Shown here in pieces: positions 231 through 40,759 of a DNA stretch of 64,000 bases; the stretch's first letter is position 1; each line of letters starts with the position of its first letter. This DNA is from Bdellovibrionales bacterium. GTDB lineage: Bacteria > Bdellovibrionota > Bdellovibrionia > Bdellovibrionales > JAUICD01. Below the pieces are notes generated by a model that ran no database searches, was not told where the DNA came from, and saw only the letters and a list, made by a program, of their open reading frames with translations. A program made the translations under genes and the position numbers. The stretch lies in assembly GCA_965203275.1 (NCBI GenBank), contig OZ241865.1, positions 2,304,001-2,368,000 on the forward strand, in the 5' to 3' direction.

Positions 231-670
231 CTTGTTTCCCTAACATGGTATTAAAAAAAGAAGGGATCCTCCTTACTAAAAGTAAACGGACTTTTGAGGT
301 AGCCAGCCTTTGATCGACGGCGTGAGCCAAAAGGTGTAAGAAAGAACTTTTTCCTTAACATGAAGTAAAAAGAAACGAAGAGATCCTCCTACTAAAAGTG
401 GTCAAGCTTTCTAGGTTGCCATTGGTGATGAAGGAATTTTTCCTTAACATCATGTTAAAGGACGAAGAGATCCTTCCCTACTAAAAATAAACGGATTTTT
501 GAGGCATTGCTCTTTTTGGACAGCGATAGCTGTCAGAGCAATGCCCAAAAACAGCCAGAGGCTGGTTTATTTTTAGTGAAAAAGATAAGAAGGCGACAGC
601 CTTCGGCTGGCAACCAGAAAGTGACCAGAGGTCAGACCACTTTTAGTGAAACAACCACTTTTAGTGAAAC
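231..670 (+). repeat. Cluster of family A hairpin repeats: one partial copy, and one full copy (437-582) nested in another
   Basis: Shared motifs TTCCTTAACAT, GATCCT, ACTAAAAGT...CCAGAGG...TTTTAGTGAAA. Confidence 0.85.
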
Positions 671-1476
671 AACTCATCAAACCAACGCCTTAGAGTGCTG
701 ACAGAAATCTTTGTTTGTTTTGCTACTTCTGCAAAGGCTTTTTCAACTCCCATTTCTTTCTTTTTTTCAATAACTAGAGCAATGGTTTCTTCATGATGTT
801 CTTGATAAAACAAACGTGTCAAATCGTCGACAGAGAACCCTGTTTTCTCTGCTACCTCTGCAATAGCTTTATCAAATGATTCCAGCTCTTTCTTTCTTTC
901 AATAACTAGAGCTATGGCTTTACTTTTATATTTATAAAACCAATTCCTCAGAGTTCTGGCATGAATCCCTGTTTGCTCTGCTATTTCTGCAATAGCTTTC
1001 ATAATTCCTATCTTTTTATTTATTTTTTCCATCATTAGAGCAACGCCCTCTGCTTTTTGTTCTTTAGAATAATAATTGCGTTTTTTCTTTTTTGAAAAAT
1101 TCCAAAAAGATCGCTTAGCTTGATCTATCAATGGATAGAGTGTACCTTTAATCTGAGCCGGTGTCTTACCATCAAAATACTCTGATAGAAAATGAAAAAT
1201 AGGCGAATGAGTACCCGAGGAAGCTAAAAAGAAATGTTCTGGAAATGTGGGAATCCGAAAAGTCTTATCATATCGTTTTGTCTTATCTCTAATATTTATG
1301 TACCTGACTGCTTTTTCTGTATTACTAAGTTGTAAAATCCGACCATTTTGACGATGTATGTTTCTGATCTCTTCTTCTTTCTCACGAATAGCTAAATTCC
1401 ATAAACGATCAAATCCTTTGTCATAGCCGATCATTCTCAATGTCGATACAGTTTCATTTACATGTAGAAGAAGCAA
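661..1476 (-). CDS. Protein with three C-terminal HTH-like repeats (IS3 OrfA-like HTH); probably the 3' part of a disrupted gene 661-1921
   Basis: IAEQTGIHARTLRNW, VAEKTGFSVDDLTRLF, VAKQTKISVSTLRRW; in frame with ORF 1486-1689 across a single TAG. Confidence 0.6.
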   Translation of the reverse strand: MLLLHVNETVSTLRMIGYDKGFDRLWNLAIREKEEEIRNIHRQNGRILQLSNTEKAVRYINIRDKTKRYDKTFRIPTFPEHFFLASSGTHSPIFHFLSEYFDGKTPAQIKGTLYPLIDQAKRSFWNFSKKKKRNYYSKEQKAEGVALMMEKINKKIGIMKAIAEIAEQTGIHARTLRNWFYKYKSKAIALVIERKKELESFDKAIAEVAEKTGFSVDDLTRLFYQEHHEETIALVIEKKKEMGVEKAFAEVAKQTKISVSTLRRWFDELFH

Positions 1477-2073: not shown

Positions 2074-2497
2074 TCCGGGATCCGGGATCCGGCATCAGAA
2101 AGATTTGTTTCCTTAACATCGTGTAAAGAGACGAGAGGATCCTTCCTACTAAAAGTAAACGGACTTTTGAGACATTGCTCTTTTTGGACAGCGTAAGCTG
2201 TCAGAGCAATGTCCAAAAGTAGCCAGAGGCTAGTTTACTTTTAGTGCAAATCAAATGAGGCAATGACCATTTTGTCAACGTGAAGTAAACATCTTGTTTC
2301 CTTAACATCGTGTAAAGAGACAAGAGGATTCTTCCTACTAAAAATAAACGGATTTTTGAGGCAATCAGCCTTTGATCGACGGCGACAGCCGTCGGGCTGA
2401 TTGCCCAAAAAGAGCCAGAGGCTGGTTTATTTTTAGTGAAACAAACGCGGTCATTGTCCAAAAACATGCCAGAGGCATGATGCATTTTGAGTGAAAG
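2074..2497 (+). repeat. GGGATCC heptamer run followed by two full family A copies (2104-2250, 2292-2442) and a 3' fragment
   Basis: Same motifs and stem-loop architecture as the other copies. Confidence 0.85.
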
Positions 2498-2509
2498 TAA
2501 CAAGCAAAG

Positions 2510-3646
2510 TTAGCTGGAAATGAGCTGATCAAAATAATGAAAGACGGCAGGTGTTGCCCAATTTTCTGTAGAAGCAACCTTTTTAATGAGTTTATGTTCT
2601 CTATTTAAAATATAACTTTCTGGTAATCTCCAAGTTCCCCAACTTTCTGCAATTTGCTTATTTCCATGCAGAATAATAAAATCAGAGGAGTCCATTTCAA
2701 AAGCCTTCATAAAATGAATGATATCTGATTTGTTTTCATCCATAGATATTGCTAAAATTTTTACCTGCCCTTGAAATTTATCCACAAGCTTCAACATAGA
2801 ATCTATCTCTTCTATACAGGGGGAACACCATGTTGCCCAAAAATTTACAATAGTGATAGTCCCTCTCAAATCAGACAAGGACACCAAACGATCATCATCT
2901 GCTATAACAGAAGGTAAACTGAAATTCGATGCCCCTACTTCTTCTAATTGAGATAAAATATTCTGATCTTGAGTGACTGCTTGATCCTTATAACCAACAC
3001 AGTTGCGTGCAACAAAAGCAATAGTTGCCAATAAAACAATCAGAATAAAGGCTATTAAAAGGCCCTTTGTCTTTGGAGTTAAGAAAGACTTTAATCGAGA
3101 CCATAAAGATGGCTTTGTGATCACCTGAGCCTTTACAGGAGTCTTATCTTCTGGCGTTTGATCAGGAGGAAGAGCCTTACCCTTGCTTTCTGGTTGCACT
3201 GGAGGTTTTGCCTTTTTAGCTGGTTTCAACTTGACGACCTCTTTCTGCATGAGCTTGATTCTATCTTCCTTACTTAAAATCAAACCAGGCTCAACCCATT
3301 CAATCAAAGCCATATTGGCATTGTCTCCCATACGACAACCAGACTTAATAATACGTGTATAACCTCCTTTGCGATCCACAAACTGAGGAGCTAAACGATT
3401 AAAAACATCTGCAATGAGTTTCTTGTTAGGATACCTAGCTAAGAGTAACCTTCGTTCATGCAAACCACCTTTCTTAGCTAGAGTGATAAGCTTTTCTGCA
3501 TGTCTTCTGAGTTCTTTGGCCTTCGCTAAAGTAGTTGTGATACGTCCATATTGAATCAAATCAAAGACTAAGTTCCTTAATAAAGACTTCTTATGATTAT
3601 CACTACGGCCAAAACTCTTGCGTTGGACTTTGACTCTATGTCTCAT
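2510..3646 (-). CDS. rplQ: 50S ribosomal protein bL17 fused to a linker, TM helix and TlpA/ResA-like thioredoxin domain
   Basis: N-terminal MRHR...GRITTTLAKAKELRR...GGYTRIIK; position after rpoA; hydrophobic GLLIAFILIVLLATIAFVA; NFWATWCSPC. Confidence 0.9.
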   Translation of the reverse strand: MRHRVKVQRKSFGRSDNHKKSLLRNLVFDLIQYGRITTTLAKAKELRRHAEKLITLAKKGGLHERRLLLARYPNKKLIADVFNRLAPQFVDRKGGYTRIIKSGCRMGDNANMALIEWVEPGLILSKEDRIKLMQKEVVKLKPAKKAKPPVQPESKGKALPPDQTPEDKTPVKAQVITKPSLWSRLKSFLTPKTKGLLIAFILIVLLATIAFVARNCVGYKDQAVTQDQNILSQLEEVGASNFSLPSVIADDDRLVSLSDLRGTITIVNFWATWCSPCIEEIDSMLKLVDKFQGQVKILAISMDENKSDIIHFMKAFEMDSSDFIILHGNKQIAESWGTWRLPESYILNREHKLIKKVASTENWATPAVFHYFDQLISS

Positions 3647-3667
3647 AAACTTACCTTTATAAATGCT

Positions 3668-5290
3668 CTAATTACTTTGGCCTGTTGATCCCCCACCTTT
3701 CTGATCAGTGGGATCATGTTGATCTGTTGCAGGGTCATAACCATCAGAATGTTCTACAGATCCTTGATCTGTTGGATCTGTTGTGTATCCAGTGGCTCCC
3801 CCTTGACCATATCCACCTTGTCCACCCTGTTGACCATATCCACCTTGTCCACCCTGTTGACCATATCCACCTTGTCCACCTTGTTGACCATATCCACCTT
3901 GTCCACCCTGTTGACCATATCCACCTTGTCCACCTTGTCCTTGACCATGTCCACCCTGCCTTGGATGTCTATATGAAGGATCCTGTCCTCCTTGTTGATT
4001 ATAAGGATCTTGTTGTCCGTACCCACCTTGTCCAGTAGAGGATCTGTACGGATGACCCTCTTGTTGACCATACCCTTCTTGTGCTGGAGCTTCTCCCCCA
4101 TAACCACCTTGTTGCATTGCTCCATATCCACCACCCTGCCCTTGACCATGTCCTCCTACTGGCCCGCCTTCATAAGGTGGCCCAGCAGGTCCACCAGGTC
4201 CAGCAGGTCCACCAGGTCCAGCAGGTCCACCAGAGCCTTGTTGCTGATATCCTGCCCTCATAGCCATGTTTTCATTGTTGTTATCCATCATTTCAATAGA
4301 AGAAGGAGGCCATCCATCAACTCTCATCCCTAAACTCAAATTCATACTTGTAAGTATTTCTTTAATTTCATTTAAGGACTTCCTTCCAAAGTTTTTTGTT
4401 TTGAGCATATCAGCTTCTGTCTTTGTAACAAGCTCTCCAATATAACGAATATTTGCATTTTTTAAACAGTTAGCACTTCTAACTGATAACTCCAAGTCAT
4501 CCACAGATCGAAATAAATTATCATTCAGTTGTGGCATAGCAGCTTCTTTTGCTACCTCTTGTACTTCTACAACTTCATCAAAATTAATAAAGACTTGAAC
4601 TTGCTCTTTGATAATCTTAGCAGCTAGAGTACATGCCTCATCTGGCTTTAAAGATTCATCTGTCCAGATTTCTAAGACAAGTCGATCATAGTCTGTTCTC
4701 TGTCCCACACGAGCATTCCCTACATGGTAATTGACTTTTCGAACAGGACTATACAAACTATCTACAGCAATAAAATCTACTGGTAAATCAGTCTTTTGAT
4801 CAGAATAAAGCACATAACCTCTACCAAACCGGCATATAATTTCAGCATGAAATTTACCATTTTCTCCTAGTGTACATATATGCTGATGAGGATTGATCAC
4901 AGAGATTTTATCATTGACCTGAATATCAGCTGCTGTCACTGGACCTTGCCCTTCTTTAACGATTGTGAGAGTGACAGGCTCTGGAGTAAACTGACGAAAA
5001 CGTACTTCTTTAAGGTTTAAAATAATATCAGTCACATCCTCTAACACATCAGGAATAGTCGTAAACTCATGGAGTACCCCTTCAAAACGCACGGCAGCCA
5101 CTGCCGACCCCATCATAGAACTGAGCAAAACTCTCCGAAGGGAGTTGCCTAAAGTTGTCCCATAACCCCTCTCTAAAGGTGCAATGGTAAACTTCCCATA
5201 ACCATCTGTTAAAGAGTCTTGATCTATGTCAAAAGACTTAGGCTTAATTAGCTTTTGCCAAAATTGATTGTAATGCTTTTGAATTTCCAT
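3668..5290 (-). CDS. rpoA: RNA polymerase alpha subunit with ~200-aa low-complexity C-terminal extension
   Basis: [44 protein letters not shown]. Confidence 0.97.
3803..3937 (-). repeat. Five 27-bp tandem repeats encoding GGQGGYGQQ within rpoA
   Basis: TTGACCATATCCACCTTGTCCACCYTG x5 on the plus strand. Confidence 0.9.
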
Positions 5291-33653: not shown

Positions 33654-36600
33654 ATGACATTTCTAAAGACAGTGCAAGGTCATCAAAACAGTTTTATAAA
33701 GAAAAACTTTTTTAAGTTTAAAGGGTTATATATTATAGTTTTGGTTTGCATTGGCTTTTTTGTGGTTGTATTTCAAAACTGCAAGTCTGATACTGTATCC
33801 ACTAGCAAAACTTCACAGCCAGGAGATTCTGGATCTTCTTTGTCTTATGAAAGAGGTTATATTATTGCACACTTACCTTCAGAGGGCGAGGGTATGTCCA
33901 AAGATAAATTTGATCTCAATACAGATGTCCATCTTAAAATGAAGCATGTTCATCCTGATGCAAATAACTTTAAGTGGAGTGTGACAAGGGGTTTTGAAAG
34001 TATTGTCGATTCTCAAACTAAAAATCAAAATAAGTATCAGCATCGTTTCACACAGATAGGTAGCTACACTGTGCTTGCTACAGCATATCAAGGGGGGAGG
34101 TTATTAACCAGTTCTAATAAACAGATTGTGATTGGAGCAGAATGTCCATTAGATAATATATTAGAGATAGAGCTTCAATCAGGTTCTTTCACTAGTGATT
34201 CTTCTGTTACTTTGACTTTGAGAGATGCTTCTGATTTTACAGATATAGCATGGAAGGTGACCTTACCTTCTAGTCCATCAAAGCAAGATTTTAATGGTGC
34301 AACATTGACTGTCGACCTGACAGGAGAGTCATCAGGTTCTCTAATTATTGAAGTCTCTGCTGTGGATTCAGCAGGATGTCTTGTCTATAGAAAAAAAGAG
34401 CTTCAAGTTACAGAAAACTTACAACCCTATATCAATCCATTTCAAATAACAGATGATGGTCAAGAAGTGGCTGTAACACTAGAAAACAATGACATTTATA
34501 AATATAGAAGGCCTCAAGGAAATACTCAAATGTTGAATTTAGATATTAAAAATACTGACAGATGCGAGTTTCAGGTCGATAGGAAGGAGCGTTCTTCAAT
34601 AAGTTGTCAAGGTGCTATAGATATCAGTTTAAGTTCAAATACAGAGTGTCAAGAGACTCTTGTCAATATATTTTTAGAAGATCAGGCAGATTCGTCTTAT
34701 CAATCTTATCAATATTATAATTATTGTCCAGCTAACAATAAGATTTGTTATTTTGGTTCTATTGAAGGAAGAATGGGGCAGCATTTTTGTTCAAAGAGTC
34801 TTGCATTAGCTAGCAGAGGTGATCAGCGTCCAGATCTTGTGACAGATAGAAGTATAGATGGACAGTGTGACAATTCTCGCAAAAATGGGTGTGTGACAGG
34901 TGAGGCCAATGATGGTGCTATAGCAGATACAGAAGAATTTTATCTATGGCACTGTGTTGGGATCAACAAAGGAGAGACAGCTACAGATTGCCGTAAGAGA
35001 ATACCCATCAACGGGCAATGTGATAATTCAAAAAGGAATAGCTGTCTTGTGGGGCAGGTTAATGATGAGGCTTCAGCAGATACAATAGAATTTTATAAAT
35101 GGCATTGTGAAGGAGAGCATGGAGGGAGGACTGCTAGCAATTGTAAGAAAGGTAAACCCCTTAATGGGGTATGCAATAACAATGTTAAATATAGATGTTC
35201 TATTGGTACGCCTAACCCGACGGCTGTAAAAAATACAAAAACACATTATAAATGGAAGTGTAATGGGAAAAATGGAGGTCGAATTTCAGGGACTTGTCAA
35301 GTAGGCGTAGAAGTTAGAGGGGCGTGTGATAATTCTCGCAGGAATGGATGTCGTATAGGCACAGCCAATGCTGGAGCTGTTGCTGATACAAGTGCTTATT
35401 ATAGATGGAAGTGTAATGGGAAAAATGGAGGTGAGAGTTCAGGCACTTGTCAAATAAGCAAACCAGCCGATGGACAATGTGATAATACTCGTAGAAATGG
35501 CTGTCAGTCAGGTACAGCTAATGATGGGGTTGTTGCTGATACAAACGTTTATTATAGGTGGCGATGTGATGGAAATGGAGGTCAAAATTCAGGTACTTGT
35601 CAAATGAGAAAACAAGTCAGAGGGCAATGTGATAATACTCGTAGAAACGGATGCCAGGCAGGAACAGCCAATGCGAGAGCAGTTGCTGATACCACTGTTT
35701 ATTATAGGTGGAGGTGTGAAGGACAAAATGGAGGTGGCAATTCAGGTACATGCCAAATAAGAACATCAGTCAATGGGCAATGTGATAATTCTCGCAGAAA
35801 TGGCTGTCTTACAGGAACATCTAATGCTAGAGCAGTTGCTGATACCAGCACACATTATAAGTGGCATTGTGTGGGGTTGCGTGGTGGACAGACAGCTACC
35901 AGTTGTCAAAGACCCAGACAGATCAGAGGGCAGTGTGATAATTCTCGTAGAAATGGTTGCCGGACAGGTACAGCTAATGATGGGGTTGTTGCTGATACCA
36001 GCACTTATTATAGATGGCGGTGTGATGGAAGTGGAGGTCGAAACTCAGGCACTTGTCAAATAAATAAACCACCTCAACCACAACAGATCAGAGGACAGTG
36101 TAATAATTCTCTTAGAAATGGTTGCCAGGCAGGTACAGCCAATGCGGAGGTTATTGCTGATACAGGCACTTATTATAGATGGAGGTGTGATGGGCAAAAC
36201 GGAGGGCAAAACTCAGGCACTTGTCAAATAAGCAAACCACCAGTTTCTCAGTACCAAAAACACACACAGTCTATAACACAAAATAGTTTTGTTAGCCCAC
36301 AAACAGATATTTTGCTTGTACTTGATATATCAGGCAGTGTAAGTTCTCGTATGAAGGATATGGTCAAAAATGGTAATTTTATAGATCAATTTATAGCGGG
36401 CATATCTAATGTAGGAAGAAGAAATAATATGTCTGTTAGTATCAATATAGCCACTATTTTAGCTGTAGCAGATCATCCTTGGTCAGGAAAAATCTTTTTC
36501 AAAAAAGAACCAAAAGTACTTAAGTCTACTATACATTCTCTAAAAGAAATGCGAAGTACTTTAGGCGAAAGGTTTAAGAAAAGAAAAATAATCAGTAGTG

Positions 36601-37259
36601 AGGAAAGGGGGGAAAGATACAGAAATCAACGTGAAGAAATGAACCTTAAAGCCCTAATGGAAAGCGTTACAGGAACACATTTGACAGAAAATCAAAAATT
36701 AGACTTTTTCCGTCCTGATGCCTCACTAATTGTTATTTTTATTACTGATGAGACAGATGTCTGTGCTAGAGCAAATAGTGAATATGAACGAGAAGGTGCT
36801 AAGATGTTCTGTAGTGGTATCACACACCAAACTGTTCTAGCTACTTTAAGGAATTTAAAAGGTACTGCTTTAAGTATTCATGGCATTTTTGATAGCAATG
36901 TACATTCTAATCATCCAAGTAAGCCTAGTAAGGAATATGCTTATGGAATTCAAGAGCTTGTACGGGCAGTCAATGGAGTGGCTATACCTTTTAAAGCTTC
37001 TAATGCTAGAGTTAGAACTGGCATCGACAGTATTCTTCAACGAGTCAACAATAATAGATTATTTAAACCAACATTAGGAATCACTTTAAGACATCGCCCT
37101 GTTGCTGGTAAGACGAAAGTATTATTGACAAACCCTGGATCATCTCCTCGGGAGATACCTTTTGTATATGATAGTAGTGCAAATACTATCCGTATTGATG
37201 CTAGCAATGCAGGGACACGAAACGCTGTCATCACAGTGGAATATTATACTACAAGGTAA
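33654..37259 (+). CDS. Large lipoprotein: N-terminal beta-rich region, nine ~51-aa 4-Cys repeats, C-terminal vWA
   Basis: FQNC lipobox; GQCDN.RRNGC..GTAN...ADT..YYRW.C.G..GG..SGTC repeats; LDISGS MIDAS motif. Confidence 0.85.
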   Translation: MTFLKTVQGHQNSFIKKNFFKFKGLYIIVLVCIGFFVVVFQNCKSDTVSTSKTSQPGDSGSSLSYERGYIIAHLPSEGEGMSKDKFDLNTDVHLKMKHVHPDANNFKWSVTRGFESIVDSQTKNQNKYQHRFTQIGSYTVLATAYQGGRLLTSSNKQIVIGAECPLDNILEIELQSGSFTSDSSVTLTLRDASDFTDIAWKVTLPSSPSKQDFNGATLTVDLTGESSGSLIIEVSAVDSAGCLVYRKKELQVTENLQPYINPFQITDDGQEVAVTLENNDIYKYRRPQGNTQMLNLDIKNTDRCEFQVDRKERSSISCQGAIDISLSSNTECQETLVNIFLEDQADSSYQSYQYYNYCPANNKICYFGSIEGRMGQHFCSKSLALASRGDQRPDLVTDRSIDGQCDNSRKNGCVTGEANDGAIADTEEFYLWHCVGINKGETATDCRKRIPINGQCDNSKRNSCLVGQVNDEASADTIEFYKWHCEGEHGGRTASNCKKGKPLNGVCNNNVKYRCSIGTPNPTAVKNTKTHYKWKCNGKNGGRISGTCQVGVEVRGACDNSRRNGCRIGTANAGAVADTSAYYRWKCNGKNGGESSGTCQISKPADGQCDNTRRNGCQSGTANDGVVADTNVYYRWRCDGNGGQNSGTCQMRKQVRGQCDNTRRNGCQAGTANARAVADTTVYYRWRCEGQNGGGNSGTCQIRTSVNGQCDNSRRNGCLTGTSNARAVADTSTHYKWHCVGLRGGQTATSCQRPRQIRGQCDNSRRNGCRTGTANDGVVADTSTYYRWRCDGSGGRNSGTCQINKPPQPQQIRGQCNNSLRNGCQAGTANAEVIADTGTYYRWRCDGQNGGQNSGTCQISKPPVSQYQKHTQSITQNSFVSPQTDILLVLDISGSVSSRMKDMVKNGNFIDQFIAGISNVGRRNNMSVSINIATILAVADHPWSGKIFFKKEPKVLKSTIHSLKEMRSTLGERFKKRKIISSEERGERYRNQREEMNLKALMESVTGTHLTENQKLDFFRPDASLIVIFITDETDVCARANSEYEREGAKMFCSGITHQTVLATLRNLKGTALSIHGIFDSNVHSNHPSKPSKEYAYGIQELVRAVNGVAIPFKASNARVRTGIDSILQRVNNNRLFKPTLGITLRHRPVAGKTKVLLTNPGSSPREIPFVYDSSANTIRIDASNAGTRNAVITVEYYTTR

Positions 37260-37642: not shown

Positions 37643-40600
37643 ATGATATTTTTAAAAACAGTGCAAAGCCATCAAAGCCATTTTATAAGGAAGAACTTTT
37701 TTAAGTTTAAAGGGTTGTATATTATAGGTTTAGTTTGCATTGGCTTTTTAGTGGTCGTATTTCAAAACTGCAAGTCTGATACTGTATCCACTAGCAAAAC
37801 TTCACAGCCAGGAGATGAAGCCTCTTTGTCTTATGAAAGAGGTTATATCATTGCTCACTTATCTTCAGAGGGCGAAGGTATGTCCAAAGATAGATTTGAG
37901 GTCAATACAGATGTCCATCTTAAAATGAAGCATGTTCATTCTGATGCAAATAACTTTAAGTGGAGTGTGACAAGAGGTTTTGAAAGTATTGTCGATTCTC
38001 AAACCACAGATCAAAATGAATATCAACATCGTTTCACACAGACGGGTAGCTACACTGTGCTTGCTACAGCATATCAAGGGGGGAGGTTATTAACTAGTTC
38101 TAATAAACAGATTGTGATTGGAGCAGAATGTCCATTAGATAATATATTAGAGATAAAGCTTCAATCAGGTTCTTTCACTAGTGATTCTTCTGTTACTTTG
38201 ACCTTAAGAGATGCTTCTGATTTTACAGATATAACATGGAAAGTTCAATTACCTTCTAGCCCATCAAAGCAAGATTTTAATGGTGCAACATTAAGTATAG
38301 ACCTAACAGAGGCGTTAGGTTCTCTGATCATTGAAGTTTCTGCTGTGGATTCAGCAGGATGTCTTGTTTATAGAAAAAAAGAGATTCAAGTTACAGAGGG
38401 CTTACAACCCTACATCAATCCATTTCAAATAACAGATGATGGTCAGGAAGTGGCTGTAGTGCTAGAAAACAATGACATTTATAAATATAGAAGGCCTCAA
38501 GGAAACACTCAAAGTTTGAATTTAGATATTAAAAATGCTGAAAGATGTGAGTTTCAGGTCGACAGGAAGGAGCGTTCTTCAATAAGTTGTCAAGGTGCTA
38601 TAGATATCAGTTTAAGTTCAAATACAGAGTGTCAAGAGACTCTTGTCAATATATTTTTAGAAGATCAGGCAGATTCGTCTTATCAATATTATAATTATTG
38701 TCCAGCTAACAATGAGATTTGTTATTTTGGTTCTATTGAAAAAAGAATGGGGCAGCATTTTTGCTCAAAGAATCTTGCATTAGCTAGCAGAGGTGATCAG
38801 CGTCCAGATCTTATGACAGATAGAAGTGTAGATGGAGAGTGTGACAATTCTCGCAAAAATGGATGTGTGACAGGTGAGGCCAATGATGGTGCCATAGCGG
38901 ATACAGAAGAATTTTATCTATGGCATTGTGTGGGAATCAACAATGGAGAAACTGCCACAGATTGCCGTAAGAGAATCCCTATCAACGGGCAATGTGATAA
39001 TTCAAAAAGAAACAGCTGTCTTGTGGGGCAAGTTAATGATGAGGCTGCAAGGGATACAGAAGAATTTTATAAGTGGCATTGTGAAGGAGAACATGGAGGG
39101 AGAACTGCTAGCAATTGTAAGAAGGGTAAAGCTTTTTGTGATAATACTCGTAGAAATGGATGCCAGGCAGGTACAGCTAATGATGAGGTTGTTGCTGATA
39201 CAAATATTTATTATAGATGGCGATGTGATGGAGATGGAGGTCAAAATTCAGGTACTTGTCAAATGAGAAAACAAGTCAGAGGGCAGTGTGATAATACTCG
39301 TAGAAATGGATGCCAGGCAGGCACAGCCAACGCGAGAGCAGTTGCTGATACCAGCACATATTATAGGTGGAGGTGTGAAGGACAAAATGGAGGTGGCAAT
39401 TCAGGTACATGTCAAATAAGAACATCAGTCAATGGGCAATGTGATAATACTCGTAGAAATGGCTGTCTTACAGGCACATCTAATGCGAGAGCAGTTGCTG
39501 ATACCAGCACACATTATAAGTGGCAATGTGTAGGAGAGCATGGTGGACGGACAGCTACCAATTGTCAAAGACCAAGACAGATCAGGGGGCAGTGTGATAA
39601 TTCTCTTAGAAATGGATGTCGTACAGGCACAGCCAATGCGAGGGCTATTGCTGATACAGGCAGACATTATAGATGGAGGTGTGATGGAGAAAATGGAGGT
39701 GGCAACTCAGGCACTTGTCAAATAAATAAACCACCTGAGTACCAAAAACACACACAATCTATAACACAAAGTAATGTTGTTAAACCACAAACAGATATTT
39801 TATTTGTACTTGATCCATCAGGCAGTATGAGTAATTTTATGCAGGTATTCACAAATAACGGTGCTATAAAGTGGTTTATAGATAGTTTACATAGAGAGGC
39901 TGATTTTAATATAGCCACTATTTTAGCTATAGTAGATGATGAGTTGTCAGGACGCATTTTTCCCACAGAAAATGCTCCAAAAGTGCTTAAGTCTAGAATA
40001 CATTCTCGAACACAAATACGGGATGGTTTACAGAAAAAGTTTAAGAAAAGAAAAATAAGCAACCAGAGAGATTGGACAGATCGTCATAGAAACCAACGTG
40101 AGGAAATGAACCTTAAAGCCCTAATGGAGAGCGTTACAACACGTTTGACAGAAAATCAAAGATTAGACTTTTTCCGTCCTGATGCCTCACTAATTGTTAT
40201 TTTTATCACTAATGAAGAAGATGTCTGTGCTAGATATCCCAGTTATGCTCGAACACTTTCTTATAAACCACCTAAAAATAATGACGAGCATAAATGGGAA
40301 CAAGAAGGTGCCGAGATGTTCTGTAGCGGTATCACACATCAAACTGTTTTAGCTACTTTAAAGAATTTAAAAGGCCCTGCTTTAAGTATTCATGGTATTT
40401 TTGATAGCAAAATACATTCTGGTCATCCAAGTGAACCTGATAAAGACTATGCTTATGGAATTCAAGAACTTGTACGTGCAGTCAATGGAGTTGCTATGCC
40501 TTTTAATCACAATTATCGAAGTAGCTTTCAAACTATTTTTAATCAAGTCAACACTAAATTATTTAAACCAACATTAGGGATCACTCTAAGATATCGCCCT

Positions 40601-40759
40601 GTTGAAAGTAAAACAAAAGTATTATTGACAAACCCTGGATCGTCTCCTCGAGAGATACCTTTTGTATATAATAGTAGTGCAAATACTATCCGTATTGATG
40701 CTAGCAATGCAGGGACACAAAACTCTGTCATCACAGTGGAATATTATACTATAAGGTAG
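37643..40759 (+). CDS. Paralogous lipoprotein with six Cys repeats and C-terminal vWA
   Basis: Same architecture; LDPSGSM MIDAS motif. Confidence 0.85.
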   Translation: MIFLKTVQSHQSHFIRKNFFKFKGLYIIGLVCIGFLVVVFQNCKSDTVSTSKTSQPGDEASLSYERGYIIAHLSSEGEGMSKDRFEVNTDVHLKMKHVHSDANNFKWSVTRGFESIVDSQTTDQNEYQHRFTQTGSYTVLATAYQGGRLLTSSNKQIVIGAECPLDNILEIKLQSGSFTSDSSVTLTLRDASDFTDITWKVQLPSSPSKQDFNGATLSIDLTEALGSLIIEVSAVDSAGCLVYRKKEIQVTEGLQPYINPFQITDDGQEVAVVLENNDIYKYRRPQGNTQSLNLDIKNAERCEFQVDRKERSSISCQGAIDISLSSNTECQETLVNIFLEDQADSSYQYYNYCPANNEICYFGSIEKRMGQHFCSKNLALASRGDQRPDLMTDRSVDGECDNSRKNGCVTGEANDGAIADTEEFYLWHCVGINNGETATDCRKRIPINGQCDNSKRNSCLVGQVNDEAARDTEEFYKWHCEGEHGGRTASNCKKGKAFCDNTRRNGCQAGTANDEVVADTNIYYRWRCDGDGGQNSGTCQMRKQVRGQCDNTRRNGCQAGTANARAVADTSTYYRWRCEGQNGGGNSGTCQIRTSVNGQCDNTRRNGCLTGTSNARAVADTSTHYKWQCVGEHGGRTATNCQRPRQIRGQCDNSLRNGCRTGTANARAIADTGRHYRWRCDGENGGGNSGTCQINKPPEYQKHTQSITQSNVVKPQTDILFVLDPSGSMSNFMQVFTNNGAIKWFIDSLHREADFNIATILAIVDDELSGRIFPTENAPKVLKSRIHSRTQIRDGLQKKFKKRKISNQRDWTDRHRNQREEMNLKALMESVTTRLTENQRLDFFRPDASLIVIFITNEEDVCARYPSYARTLSYKPPKNNDEHKWEQEGAEMFCSGITHQTVLATLKNLKGPALSIHGIFDSKIHSGHPSEPDKDYAYGIQELVRAVNGVAMPFNHNYRSSFQTIFNQVNTKLFKPTLGITLRYRPVESKTKVLLTNPGSSPREIPFVYNSSANTIRIDASNAGTQNSVITVEYYTIR

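What the first reader, a model, noticed from the sequence alone, without database searches (positions are those of the whole stretch)
2510..3646. Ribosomal protein bL17 fused to a membrane anchor and a thioredoxin domain: a possibly membrane-tethered ribosome
Seen: one 378-aa ORF at the canonical rplQ position with a full bL17 (~120 aa), a K/P-rich linker, one hydrophobic helix preceded by basic residues, and a TlpA/ResA-like WCSPC domain. I see no internal stop and no convincing internal RBS. Known: bL17 lies on the exit-tunnel face of the 50S, and TlpA/ResA proteins are membrane-anchored periplasmic thiol oxidoreductases. Inference: the topology would put bL17 in the cytoplasm and the CxxC domain in the periplasm. 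That would tie 50S subunits to the inner membrane and place a redox catalyst near Sec-exported chains, which fits the Cys-rich exported proteins encoded here.
Basis: partly seen in the sequence, partly recalled or inferred. Interest (0 to 1): 0.85.

Follow-up and report, generated by a model that had tools for sequence, protein, structure and literature searches.

The report
Ribosomal protein bL17 fused to membrane redoxin
In one small group of Bdellovibrio-like bacteria the only gene for the essential ribosomal protein bL17 has merged with its neighbour, a membrane-anchored periplasmic thiol-disulfide enzyme, so bL17 is made with a membrane anchor attached and the ribosomes may be physically tied to the cell membrane.

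Summary
Window 2510-3646 (minus strand) is one 378-aa ORF: complete bL17, a 75-aa K/P/E-rich disordered linker, one strong TM helix, and a ResA/TlpA-like WCSPC redoxin. It is not an assembly artefact: contigs from two independent studies span it with 0 differences and 0 gaps. Ten further full-length homologues (54-58 % identity) keep the same open architecture.

It is the only bL17 gene in the genome. In the order (Bdellovibrionales-like), rplQ is normally followed by this redoxin as a separate gene: 32 of 34 inspected loci are split. Of 384 genomes, only the two of this genus are fused. The fused proteins form one clade, so the fusion happened once. No other bL17+redoxin protein appeared among the best 150 of 1.84 billion representatives.

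No conserved internal start exists, so bL17 must be translated with the anchor attached. Untested: whether mature 50S subunits stay tethered (my estimate about 0.45) or the linker is cut. The tethered-ribosome function is plausible but unproven. The Cys-rich-protein link is not supported.

The parts
2510..3646 (-). Fused rplQ-redoxin ORF, 378 aa plus stop (P0001)
   Evidence: Confirmed base-for-base by independent contigs X1 and X2 spanning 2473-3832.
3290..3646 (-). bL17 core, residues 1-119
   Evidence: PF01196 at 22-118, E 1.5e-34. TIGR00059 124 bits, above the cut-off of 70. PDB bL17 chains at E about 1e-29 to 1e-30 over residues 1-120. Mean pairwise identity 79 % among 11 fused homologues.
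3065..3289 (-). Linker, residues 120-194: K/P/E-rich, predicted disordered, hypervariable in sequence and length but always open
   Evidence: AF2 pLDDT below 50 over 140-190. Mean pairwise identity 34 %, linker length 53-77 aa in 11 homologues. The alternative frames carry 8-11 stops here.
3122..3124 (-). In-frame GTG (codon 175) with a weak AAGG 5 nt upstream: the only candidate internal start before the TM in G000; not conserved in G001
2999..3064 (-). Transmembrane helix, residues 195-216 (signal-anchor, N-in/C-out)
   Evidence: Kyte-Doolittle mean 3.01 over 195-213. The N-flank is more positive than the C-flank in 11 of 11 homologues. AF2 helix 193-216.
2513..2932 (-). ResA/TlpA-like thioredoxin-fold domain, residues 239-378
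   Evidence: Pfam AhpC-TSA/Redoxin/Thioredoxin_8. PDB 3kcm E 4.9e-22 and B. subtilis ResA 1st9 E 1.1e-17. AF2 beta-alpha fold at pLDDT 64-86 by 10-residue block. Mean pairwise identity 73 %.
2816..2827 (-). Active-site C-S-P-C (C274, C277) inside the invariant F-W-A-T-W-C-x-P-C
   Evidence: Read from the sequence. Invariant columns in alignment A1.
2465..2479 (-). Terminator-like hairpin plus T-run about 30 nt after the stop; built from a REP-like palindrome
3654..3657 (-). Weak SD-like AAGG 8 nt upstream of the rplQ ATG
   Evidence: (upstream sequence)
3668..5290 (-). rpoA immediately upstream (operon context)
   Evidence: Pfam RNA_pol_A_bac, RNA_pol_L and RNA_pol_A_CTD

Best explanation
SHOWN: an ancestor of this genus-level clade lost the stop codon(s) and short spacer between rplQ and the next gene. 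That next gene is a signal-anchored ResA/TlpA-like thiol:disulfide oxidoreductase and is the conserved downstream neighbour of rplQ across the order. The result is the genome's only bL17 gene, and it cannot be translated to its stop without also making the linker, the TM helix and the redoxin. INFERRED (topology): the basic linker stays in the cytoplasm. The hydrophobic helix acts as an internal signal-anchor inserted via SRP/Sec/YidC. The CxxC domain is exported to the periplasm, where a DsbD-type transporter encoded elsewhere in the genome would keep it reduced, so that it can reduce periplasmic substrates such as apocytochromes c. INFERRED (consequence, my preferred reading): the fusion stays intact. 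bL17 assembles into the 50S subunit next to the tunnel exit while its C-terminal tail (53-77 residues, roughly 19-29 nm fully extended) leashes the subunit to the inner membrane. Ribosomes of this clade would then be constitutively membrane-proximal, and every ribosome would bring one periplasmic redoxin with it.
For: The ORF is real and independently assembled: X1 (study P1) and X2 (study P2) each have one contig over 2473-3832 with 0 other letters and 0 gaps. It is the sole bL17 gene: 1 PF01196 hit above cut-off in G000, with 3 noise hits at E > 0.1. G001 likewise shows no second L17 match. The fusion is retained through long divergence: 10 further full-length homologues at 54-58 % identity, monophyletic at 100/100 support. 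Both domains are under strong constraint (79 % and 73 % mean pairwise identity), whereas the linker (34 %, 53-77 aa) never acquires a stop. There is no conserved internal start: 6 of 11 proteins have no Met at all between residues 113 and 230, and G001 has no ATG/GTG/TTG in codons 140-197. No A-run of 6 or more occurs in the G000 ORF, and no promoter-like site lies upstream of the TM (2 sites found against 4.2 expected, both inside the redoxin domain). Topology: strong TM helix with the positive-inside pattern in 11 of 11 and AF2 helix 193-216. No A-x-A type signal-peptidase motif follows the TM in the aligned sequences (read). C-terminal tails on bL17 are tolerated: the 32 split loci inspected encode bL17 of 119-271 aa, 141-271 aa in the 30 from this order. 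Solved mycobacterial ribosomes carry 180-199-aa bL17 chains that match only through their first ~118 residues. bL17 belongs to the ring of proteins around the E. coli tunnel exit (bioRxiv 10.1101/312850, Introduction passage). Redox partners exist: DsbD_TM (191 bits) and a CcsA-type cytochrome c assembly protein (106 bits) are found in G000.
Against: There is no protein-level or RNA-level evidence of any kind. Many relatives are only one to four in-frame stop codons away from the same fusion: 31 of 384 genomes, 11 of them with a single stop. Yet only 1 of 121 genera has fixed it. This suggests the fused state usually carries a cost, and that this clade may have evolved a way around it, such as cleavage. 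A short segment just before the TM (near-invariant P179, a following W, invariant K194) is conserved only in the fused clade. It could be a processing site rather than a membrane-interface element. Leashing every 50S subunit to the membrane would constrain ribosome assembly and diffusion. The AF2 model is of modest confidence (mean pLDDT 61.9, 11-sequence alignment). The position of the bL17 C-terminus relative to the membrane-facing surface was not measured here.
Confidence: 0.45

Rival explanations
1. Polyprotein: the fusion is translated as one chain, but an endoprotease cuts the cytoplasmic linker. This releases ordinary soluble bL17 (with a K-rich tail like that of its relatives) and leaves a normal membrane-anchored redoxin. 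The fusion then only enforces 1:1 co-synthesis.
For: The fusion is fixed in only 1 of 121 genera although 31 of 384 genomes are in-frame and 1-4 stops away. That fits a need for an extra adaptation. A clade-specific conserved P-x(1-4)-W / basic segment lies 10-20 residues before the TM. The long disordered linker would be protease-accessible. Recalled, not from a call: eukaryotic ubiquitin-eL40 and ubiquitin-eS31 show that ribosomal proteins can be made as fusions and then cleaved.
Against: No recognisable protease site or protease partner was identified. Apart from the juxtamembrane motif, the linker is hypervariable (34 % identity). The first stop-loss mutant must have been viable before any dedicated processing evolved. 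From general knowledge, bacterial proteins with long disordered linkers next to a TM anchor are commonly stable.
Confidence: 0.33
2. Two products from one ORF by translational tricks. Most ribosomes would end translation early in the linker (frameshift, sliding or drop-off) to give free bL17. The redoxin would be made separately from an internal, possibly non-AUG, start. The full-length fusion would be a minor species.
For: G000 has an in-frame GTG at codon 175 with AAGG 5 nt upstream, no weaker than the SD of rplQ itself. Both alternative frames hit stops quickly in the linker. In 11 of 32 split loci the redoxin start (picked by my start-codon heuristic) lies within 11 nt of the rplQ stop, which suggests ancestral translational coupling.
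Against: The candidate start is not conserved: G001 has no ATG/GTG/TTG in codons 140-197, and 6 of 11 proteins have no Met at 113-230. G000 has no A-run of 6 or more anywhere in the ORF. G001 has only two A6 runs in the linker, at non-homologous positions. No shared slippery site is visible. DNA is available for only 2 of the 11 fused genes, so non-AUG starts in the others could not be checked.
Confidence: 0.12
3. Artefact or decaying gene: a sequencing or assembly error, or a recent neutral stop loss on its way to pseudogenisation.
For: Two fragmentary database homologues (P0012 261 aa, P0013 213 aa) start inside the L17 domain. P0013 also shows apparent frameshifts, so some assemblies of this clade are error-prone.
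Against: Independent contigs from two studies are identical. Eleven full-length versions come from different assemblies. Both domains are highly conserved. It is the only bL17 gene in the genome.
Confidence: 0.02

Closest known systems
bL17 (rplQ) with C-terminal extensions: the 141-271-aa bL17 of this order's split relatives, the 180-199-aa mycobacterial bL17 in solved ribosomes, and the NCBIfam 'L17, sunset domain variant' NF051448
   Same: Complete bL17 core, encoded after rpoA at the end of the alpha operon, followed by a basic low-complexity C-terminal tail.
   Different: Those tails end free in the cytoplasm. Here the tail runs on into a TM helix and an exported enzyme. NF051448 scores 130 bits against a cut-off of 280, so this is not that variant.
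ResA / TlpA / CcmG(DsbE)-type membrane-anchored periplasmic thiol:disulfide oxidoreductases
   Same: A single N-terminal signal-anchor helix followed by a thioredoxin fold with W-C-x-P-C. Best solved matches are 3kcm (E 4.9e-22) and B. subtilis ResA (E 1.1e-17). DsbD-type and CcsA-type partners are present in the genome.
   Different: The anchor is preceded by about 194 cytoplasmic residues that form a ribosomal protein, not the 0-21 residues seen in the split orthologues (start codons chosen by heuristic). Scores are below every curated equivalog or subfamily cut-off: ResA 73.9 vs 170, DsbE 45 vs 123, TlpA 42 vs 230. The substrate is therefore unknown.
Membrane-bound mitochondrial ribosomes (Mba1/mL45, Mrx15 ribosome receptors)
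   Same: The large subunit is held at the membrane by a protein near the tunnel exit. This is what the fusion would achieve if it stays intact. Source: PMC6233058, abstract only, from the listing; further detail is recalled.
   Different: There the tether is non-covalent, through separate receptor proteins or a dedicated mitoribosomal protein. Here it would be a covalent extension of a core bacterial r-protein and would carry a periplasmic enzyme. No homology is involved.
Eukaryotic ubiquitin-ribosomal protein fusions (Ub-eL40, Ub-eS31): recalled, not from a call
   Same: An essential ribosomal protein is synthesised as a fusion with an unrelated domain.
   Different: Ubiquitin sits at the N-terminus, is soluble and is removed. 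Here the partner sits at the C-terminus, spans the membrane, and any removal is unknown.

Membership tests
bL17 (TIGR00059 / PF01196) | Sequence match above the curated cut-offs over the whole domain | tested here: met
   PF01196 119.2 bits (cut-off 27), profile positions 1-97 of 97. TIGR00059 124.1 bits (cut-off 70.05). PDB bL17 chains at E about 1e-29 to 1e-30.
bL17 (TIGR00059 / PF01196) | Encoded as the last r-protein gene of the alpha operon, after rpoA | tested here: met
   Order rpsM-rpsK-rpsD-rpoA-ORF on the minus strand. Only rpoA was confirmed by Pfam; I named the three rps genes from their translations and did not scan them.
bL17 (TIGR00059 / PF01196) | It is the functional copy (no other rplQ in the genome) | tested here: met
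   1 hit above cut-off in G000; 3 others at E 0.16-0.33 lie inside open frames of 573-1151 aa.
bL17 (TIGR00059 / PF01196) | Incorporated into the 50S subunit | not testable with these tools
   Needs ribosome purification and mass spectrometry, or cryo-EM.
ResA/TlpA/DsbE-type periplasmic thiol:disulfide oxidoreductase | Thioredoxin fold with a CxxC active site | tested here: met
   Pfam AhpC-TSA, Redoxin, Thioredoxin_8 and Thioredoxin. Invariant W273-C274-x-P276-C277. AF2 beta-alpha-beta fold. Residue-level alignment to 3kcm.
ResA/TlpA/DsbE-type periplasmic thiol:disulfide oxidoreductase | Membrane anchor or export signal that places the domain outside the cytoplasm | tested here: met
   In silico only: TM 195-213, KD 3.01, and a flank-charge difference favouring N-in in 11 of 11; AF2 helix 193-216. 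Split orthologues have the same helix 0-21 residues from their N-terminus.
ResA/TlpA/DsbE-type periplasmic thiol:disulfide oxidoreductase | Score above a curated equivalog or subfamily cut-off (ResA, DsbE/CcmG, TlpA, StoA) | tested here: not met
   ResA 73.9 vs 170; DsbE 45 vs 123.15; TlpA 42 vs 230; StoA 42 vs 210. I therefore call it 'ResA/TlpA-like' and assign no specific subfamily.
ResA/TlpA/DsbE-type periplasmic thiol:disulfide oxidoreductase | A membrane electron donor (DsbD/CcdA) is present in the genome | tested here: met
   PF02683 DsbD_TM, 191 bits, at G000:C1:1525152-1525787. No genomic linkage to this locus.
ResA/TlpA/DsbE-type periplasmic thiol:disulfide oxidoreductase | Thiol-disulfide exchange activity and a defined substrate | not testable with these tools
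   Needs biochemistry or genetics.
NCBIfam NF051448 '50S L17, sunset domain variant' | Score above the curated cut-off, including the C-terminal domain | tested here: not met
   130.3 bits vs cut-off 280. The match covers profile positions 10-140 of 229 only.
Constitutively membrane-tethered ribosome (functional class, cf. mitoribosomes) | The mature large subunit is physically attached to the membrane independently of nascent chains | not testable with these tools
   Only the coding potential for a covalent tether is shown.

The most novel reading that the evidence does not exclude
In this Bdellovibrionales genus every 50S subunit is covalently leashed to the inner membrane through its own bL17, beside the tunnel exit, and each carries a periplasmic CxxC reductase on the far side of the membrane. 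This would be a bacterial counterpart of the permanently membrane-bound mitoribosome. It would couple translation and secretion spatially to periplasmic thiol redox chemistry.
Probability: 0.4. Interest if true: 0.92.

Novelty: new variant of a known kind. Interest (0 to 1): 0.77.

Why it matters
Bacterial ribosomes are regarded as freely diffusing particles that reach the membrane only transiently, through SRP, FtsY and SecYEG. Here an essential, single-copy core ribosomal protein cannot be synthesised without a transmembrane anchor and a periplasmic enzyme attached, and this state has been kept through long divergence.

If the protein stays intact, it is a natural experiment in obligatory membrane tethering of bacterial ribosomes. 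The questions it opens are directly testable: how such cells assemble 50S subunits, how they translate cytosolic proteins, and how they organise the nucleoid. If the protein is cleaved instead, it is a rare bacterial case of a ribosomal protein made as a polyprotein.

The order-wide rplQ-redoxin gene pair is also unexplained. Its start lies within a few bases of the rplQ stop in 11 of 32 split loci, by my start-codon heuristic.

Tried and rejected
(1) I first read the 'open_frame_aa' column as showing fusions in six or seven more genomes. Direct ORF inspection showed this was wrong: all of those loci are split.

(2) Codon-usage test, asking whether the redoxin half is as 'ribosomal' as the L17 half. 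Codon bias in this genome is too weak to tell (background sd 0.015). The L17 part scored 0.000 and the TM+redoxin part -0.000, both about the 84th percentile, and 19.6 % of random 184-codon windows score as high. Uninformative.

(3) RNA evidence: no RNA holder was listed by the look-up of sequencing runs. All four runs laid were contigs, so they say nothing on transcripts or 5' ends.

(4) More DNA of fused genes. A clade-specific degenerate motif found 0 matches in metagenome contigs. The alignment-based scan kept 80 loci, of which I examined the 5 whose match covered both halves; all 5 are split. The genome-contig scan returned mostly generic redoxins. Its two loci covering both halves (L013, L049) are split. 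So DNA-level junction analysis rests on 2 genomes only.

(5) Downstream gene conservation: the gene after the redoxin differs between relatives and is often on the other strand. No wider operon gives a functional hint.

(6) Literature. Searches for L17 + thioredoxin + fusion + transmembrane, bL17 + membrane + tether, 'sunset domain', and ribosomal protein + gene fusion + membrane-anchored gave no paper describing this architecture, judging from listings and abstracts only. The review PMC10931766 (bL17 passages only) mentions operon regulation and DNA binding but nothing membrane-related.

(7) Earlier findings of this scan: three look-ups returned nothing.

(8) A lipobox or signal-peptidase reading of the near-invariant Cys216 after the TM. 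I rejected it by eye: the residues before the Cys (R-N or R-S) do not fit the lipobox consensus as I recall it, P0007 lacks the Cys, and no A-x-A motif is present.
Full report
OBSERVATION. On the minus strand, window 2510-3646 is a single ATG-initiated ORF of 378 codons with no internal stop. It lies directly after rpsM-rpsK-rpsD-rpoA (only rpoA was confirmed by Pfam; I named the three rps genes from their translations).
- Residues 22-118 match Pfam Ribosomal_L17 end to end (E 1.5e-34).
- Residues 239-360 match AhpC-TSA, Redoxin and Thioredoxin_8 (E 4.6e-16 to 9e-9).
- NCBIfam's L17 equivalog is passed (124 bits vs 70).
- The ResA, DsbE and TlpA models match only below their cut-offs (73.9 vs 170; 45 vs 123; 42 vs 230).
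- Between the two domains lie 75 residues rich in K, P and E. A 19-residue window of Kyte-Doolittle mean 3.01 follows at 195-213.
- The active site is W-C-S-P-C (window 2816-2827).

NOT AN ARTEFACT. The index lists 11 runs from 4 studies that hold the stretch or part of it, 6 of them with half its sampled words or more.
- I laid four runs. X1 (study P1) and X2 (study P2) each contain one contig covering 2473-3832, the whole ORF, with 0 other letters and 0 gaps.
- X5 and X7 cover parts of the ORF. They show no insertion or deletion and only 5 substitutions within the ORF between them.
- A search of 5.8 billion clustered proteins found ten other full-length proteins (P0002-P0011, 359-378 aa, 54-58 % identity, 99-100 % coverage). 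All carry both Pfam domains and come from different assemblies.
- Two fragments also turned up (P0012, P0013). They begin inside the L17 domain, and P0013 shows signs of frameshift errors.

HOW IT IS DISTRIBUTED. RpoA homologues that carry names are labelled Bdellovibrio, Bdellovibrionaceae, Bdellovibrionales, Pseudobdellovibrionaceae, Bdellovibrionota or, once, 'Proteobacteria', at about 70-74 % identity. The organism therefore belongs to Bdellovibrionota, most likely Bdellovibrionales.
- In 41 genomes of the order, the L17 and redoxin matches lie on the same contig and strand within about 1 kb in 33. The other 8 comprise 2 at contig ends, 2 on different contigs, 2 on the opposite strand, and 2 lying 4-40 kb apart.
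- I inspected the ORFs of 34 loci directly. Only G000 and its congener G001 are fused. The other 32 have a stop after bL17 and a separate redoxin ORF whose TM helix begins 0-21 residues from its start. Those 32 encode bL17 of 119-271 aa (141-271 aa in the 30 from this order).
- By my start-codon heuristic the spacer has a median of 53.5 nt and a minimum of -1 nt. It is 11 nt or less in 11 of 32 loci.
- A census of 384 genomes of the order found a stop-free spanning match only in G000 and G001 (genus g1, 2 of 2). In 31 other genomes the two genes are in the same frame, separated by 1-4 stops, and 11 of these have a single stop. Examples were read.
- The adjacency also occurs outside the order, always split: MAGs labelled Myxococcota and Pseudobdellovibrionaceae (L013, L049), and 5 metagenome loci.
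- An exhaustive HMMER pass over 1.84 billion 50 %-identity representatives listed its best 150. Only one protein (P0009, representing the query's own cluster) matches full length. All 11 multi-stretch hits were checked: three are L17 duplications and eight are tandem redoxins without PF01196.
- A maximum-likelihood tree of the L17 core plus TM-redoxin (43 rows, linker omitted) puts the 11 fused proteins in one clade with 100/100 support. That clade is nested in the family next to the split genomes G002, G003 and G004.
The conclusion is one fusion event, by loss of the stop(s) and spacer, retained through substantial divergence.

IS ONE POLYPEPTIDE REALLY MADE?
- G000 has a single L17 hit above cut-off, and G001 shows no second L17 match. 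The fused gene must therefore supply bL17.
- Among the 11 fused proteins, the L17 core and the redoxin domain are conserved (mean pairwise identity 79 % and 73 %). The linker is not (34 %; length 53-77 aa), yet it never contains a stop. At this base composition a random 75-codon stretch stays open with probability about 0.004. The two other frames carry 8-11 stops in this region.
- Six of the 11 proteins have no Met between residues 113 and 230.
- At the DNA level, G001 has no ATG, GTG or TTG in codons 140-197. G000 has ATG133 without an SD, and GTG175 with AAGG 5 nt upstream. That SD is weak, but the SD of rplQ itself is no stronger. An extra internal start in G000 is therefore not excluded, but it is not a conserved feature.
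- G000 has no A-run of 6 or more in the ORF. The A6 runs in G001's linker are not at shared positions.
- Promoter-like sites number 2 against 4.2 expected, and both lie inside the redoxin domain. A terminator-like hairpin follows the stop at 2479-2465.
Whatever happens to the redoxin, bL17 cannot reach a stop codon without the TM helix and redoxin being translated behind it.

STRUCTURE, TOPOLOGY, REDOX CONTEXT.
- AF2 on the 11-sequence alignment is of modest confidence (mean pLDDT 61.9). It gives an alpha/beta L17 core (16-118), no confident structure at 140-190, a helix at 193-216, and a thioredoxin fold at 257-377 with block-mean pLDDT 64-86.
- The 15 residues before the TM carry net charge 0 to +5. 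The 15 after carry 0 to -3. The N-side is the more positive in all 11. This predicts bL17 and the linker inside and the CxxC domain outside, the same orientation as in the split orthologues.
- No A-x-A motif follows the helix (read), so the redoxin probably remains anchored.
- The closest solved sequences are 3kcm (E 4.9e-22) and B. subtilis ResA (E 1.1e-17).
- The genome encodes a DsbD-type electron transporter and a CcsA-type cytochrome c assembly protein elsewhere. It also has a second, distant TlpA-like paralogue. A reductive periplasmic role is therefore plausible, but the substrate is unknown.

MECHANISTIC READING. Shown: a clade-fixed fusion, the sole bL17 gene, co-linear translation, and a predicted N-in/C-out anchor. 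Inferred: what happens afterwards.
- I favour persistence of the intact protein (0.45).
  - C-terminal tails on bL17 are evidently tolerated. The split relatives in this order encode bL17 of 141-271 aa, and solved mycobacterial ribosomes carry 180-199-aa chains.
  - A 53-77-residue disordered tail spans up to about 19-29 nm (my arithmetic at 0.36-0.38 nm per residue).
  - The very first stop-loss mutant had to be viable without any dedicated processing.
- The main rival is cleavage of the linker (0.33).
  - Many lineages sit only one to four stop codons from the same fusion, 11 of them a single stop, yet only 1 of 121 genera fixed it.
  - A P-x(1-4)-W / basic segment just before the TM is conserved only in the fused clade.
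- A translational two-product scheme (0.12) and an artefact (0.02) are less likely, for the reasons given above.

COMPARISON WITH THE KNOWN.
- The parts are ordinary: a bona fide bL17 and a ResA/TlpA-like redoxin that meets no equivalog cut-off.
- The combination was not found in the proteins outside this clade that I could examine.
- It was not found in four literature searches, judged from listings and abstracts only. The bL17 passages of a 2024 review of extraribosomal r-protein functions (PMC10931766) do not mention it either.
- Functionally the nearest analogue is the receptor-mediated membrane binding of mitoribosomes (PMC6233058, abstract).
- Formally the nearest precedents for an r-protein made as a fusion are the eukaryotic ubiquitin fusions (recalled, not from a call).
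I rate it a new variant of known kinds. It would become categorically new only if tethering is demonstrated.

Eight of 48 window ORFs of at least 120 aa reach the genome's 90th percentile of Cys content, against about 5 expected. The two notable ones are paralogues of 1201 and 1038 aa with 3.5-4 % Cys at 33.6-40.8 kb, about 30 kb away. Nothing links them to this gene.

LIMITS.
- There is no RNA or protein evidence.
- DNA is available for only two fused genes.
- Start codons of the split redoxin genes were chosen by a heuristic.
- The AF2 model is of modest confidence.
- The geometry of the bL17 C-terminus on the ribosome was not measured.
- Literature claims of absence rest on the four searches named above.

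Noticed in passing
window 3668-5290 (-), especially about 3668-4300: RpoA is 540 aa. After the normal N-terminal, insert and CTD domains (Pfam matches to residue 314), it carries a tail of about 200 aa rich in G, Q and Y, with tandem [13 protein letters not shown] repeats. The closest relatives' RpoA are 339-396 aa, so the long low-complexity tail looks specific to this genome. Read depth rises over its repeats.
   Followed up: partly
window 2200-2500; motif at 554, 2222, 2414, 2468, 18641, 25444, 50290, 50690, 50923, 51710: A REP-like palindromic element with core GCCAGAGGC / GCCTCTGGC occurs 554 times in the 2.57-Mb genome, against about 2.8 expected. Three copies sit just downstream of the fused gene, form the terminator-like hairpins, and give contig depths in the thousands.
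   Followed up: partly
window 33654-37259 (+) and 37643-40759 (+): Two adjacent paralogous large ORFs (1201 and 1038 aa), with near-identical N-termini that include a hydrophobic stretch and 3.5-4 % Cys. No family search was run.
   Followed up: no
L013, L049, L125, L126, L147, L154, L199: The rplQ followed by TlpA-like redoxin gene pair also occurs, always split, outside this order. Examples are MAGs labelled Myxococcota and Pseudobdellovibrionaceae and several GC-rich metagenome contigs. Some have only one in-frame stop between the genes. The reason for this widespread linkage is unknown.
   Followed up: partly
window 661-1476 (-): A 271-aa ORF whose C-terminal half contains three tandem copies of a ~35-aa module (K-A-I-A-E-I/V-A-E-x-T-G ... 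L-R-x-W-F). It looks like a repeated helix-turn-helix unit (seen in the translation).
   Followed up: no
P0012, P0013 (database proteins): Two shorter homologues of the fused protein begin inside the L17 domain although they sit on long contigs (125 kb and 91 kb). P0013 shows a locally scrambled stretch and a premature end in the redoxin domain, suggesting indel errors in that assembly. Their DNA could not be fetched.
   Followed up: no
alignment A1, P0001 residues 179-216: These features are conserved only in the fused clade: near-invariant P179 followed by W, invariant K194 before the TM, invariant R214, and near-invariant C216 just after the TM (absent in P0007). Their roles are unknown. 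They could form a membrane-interface segment, a processing site, or an extra redox-active Cys.
   Followed up: partly
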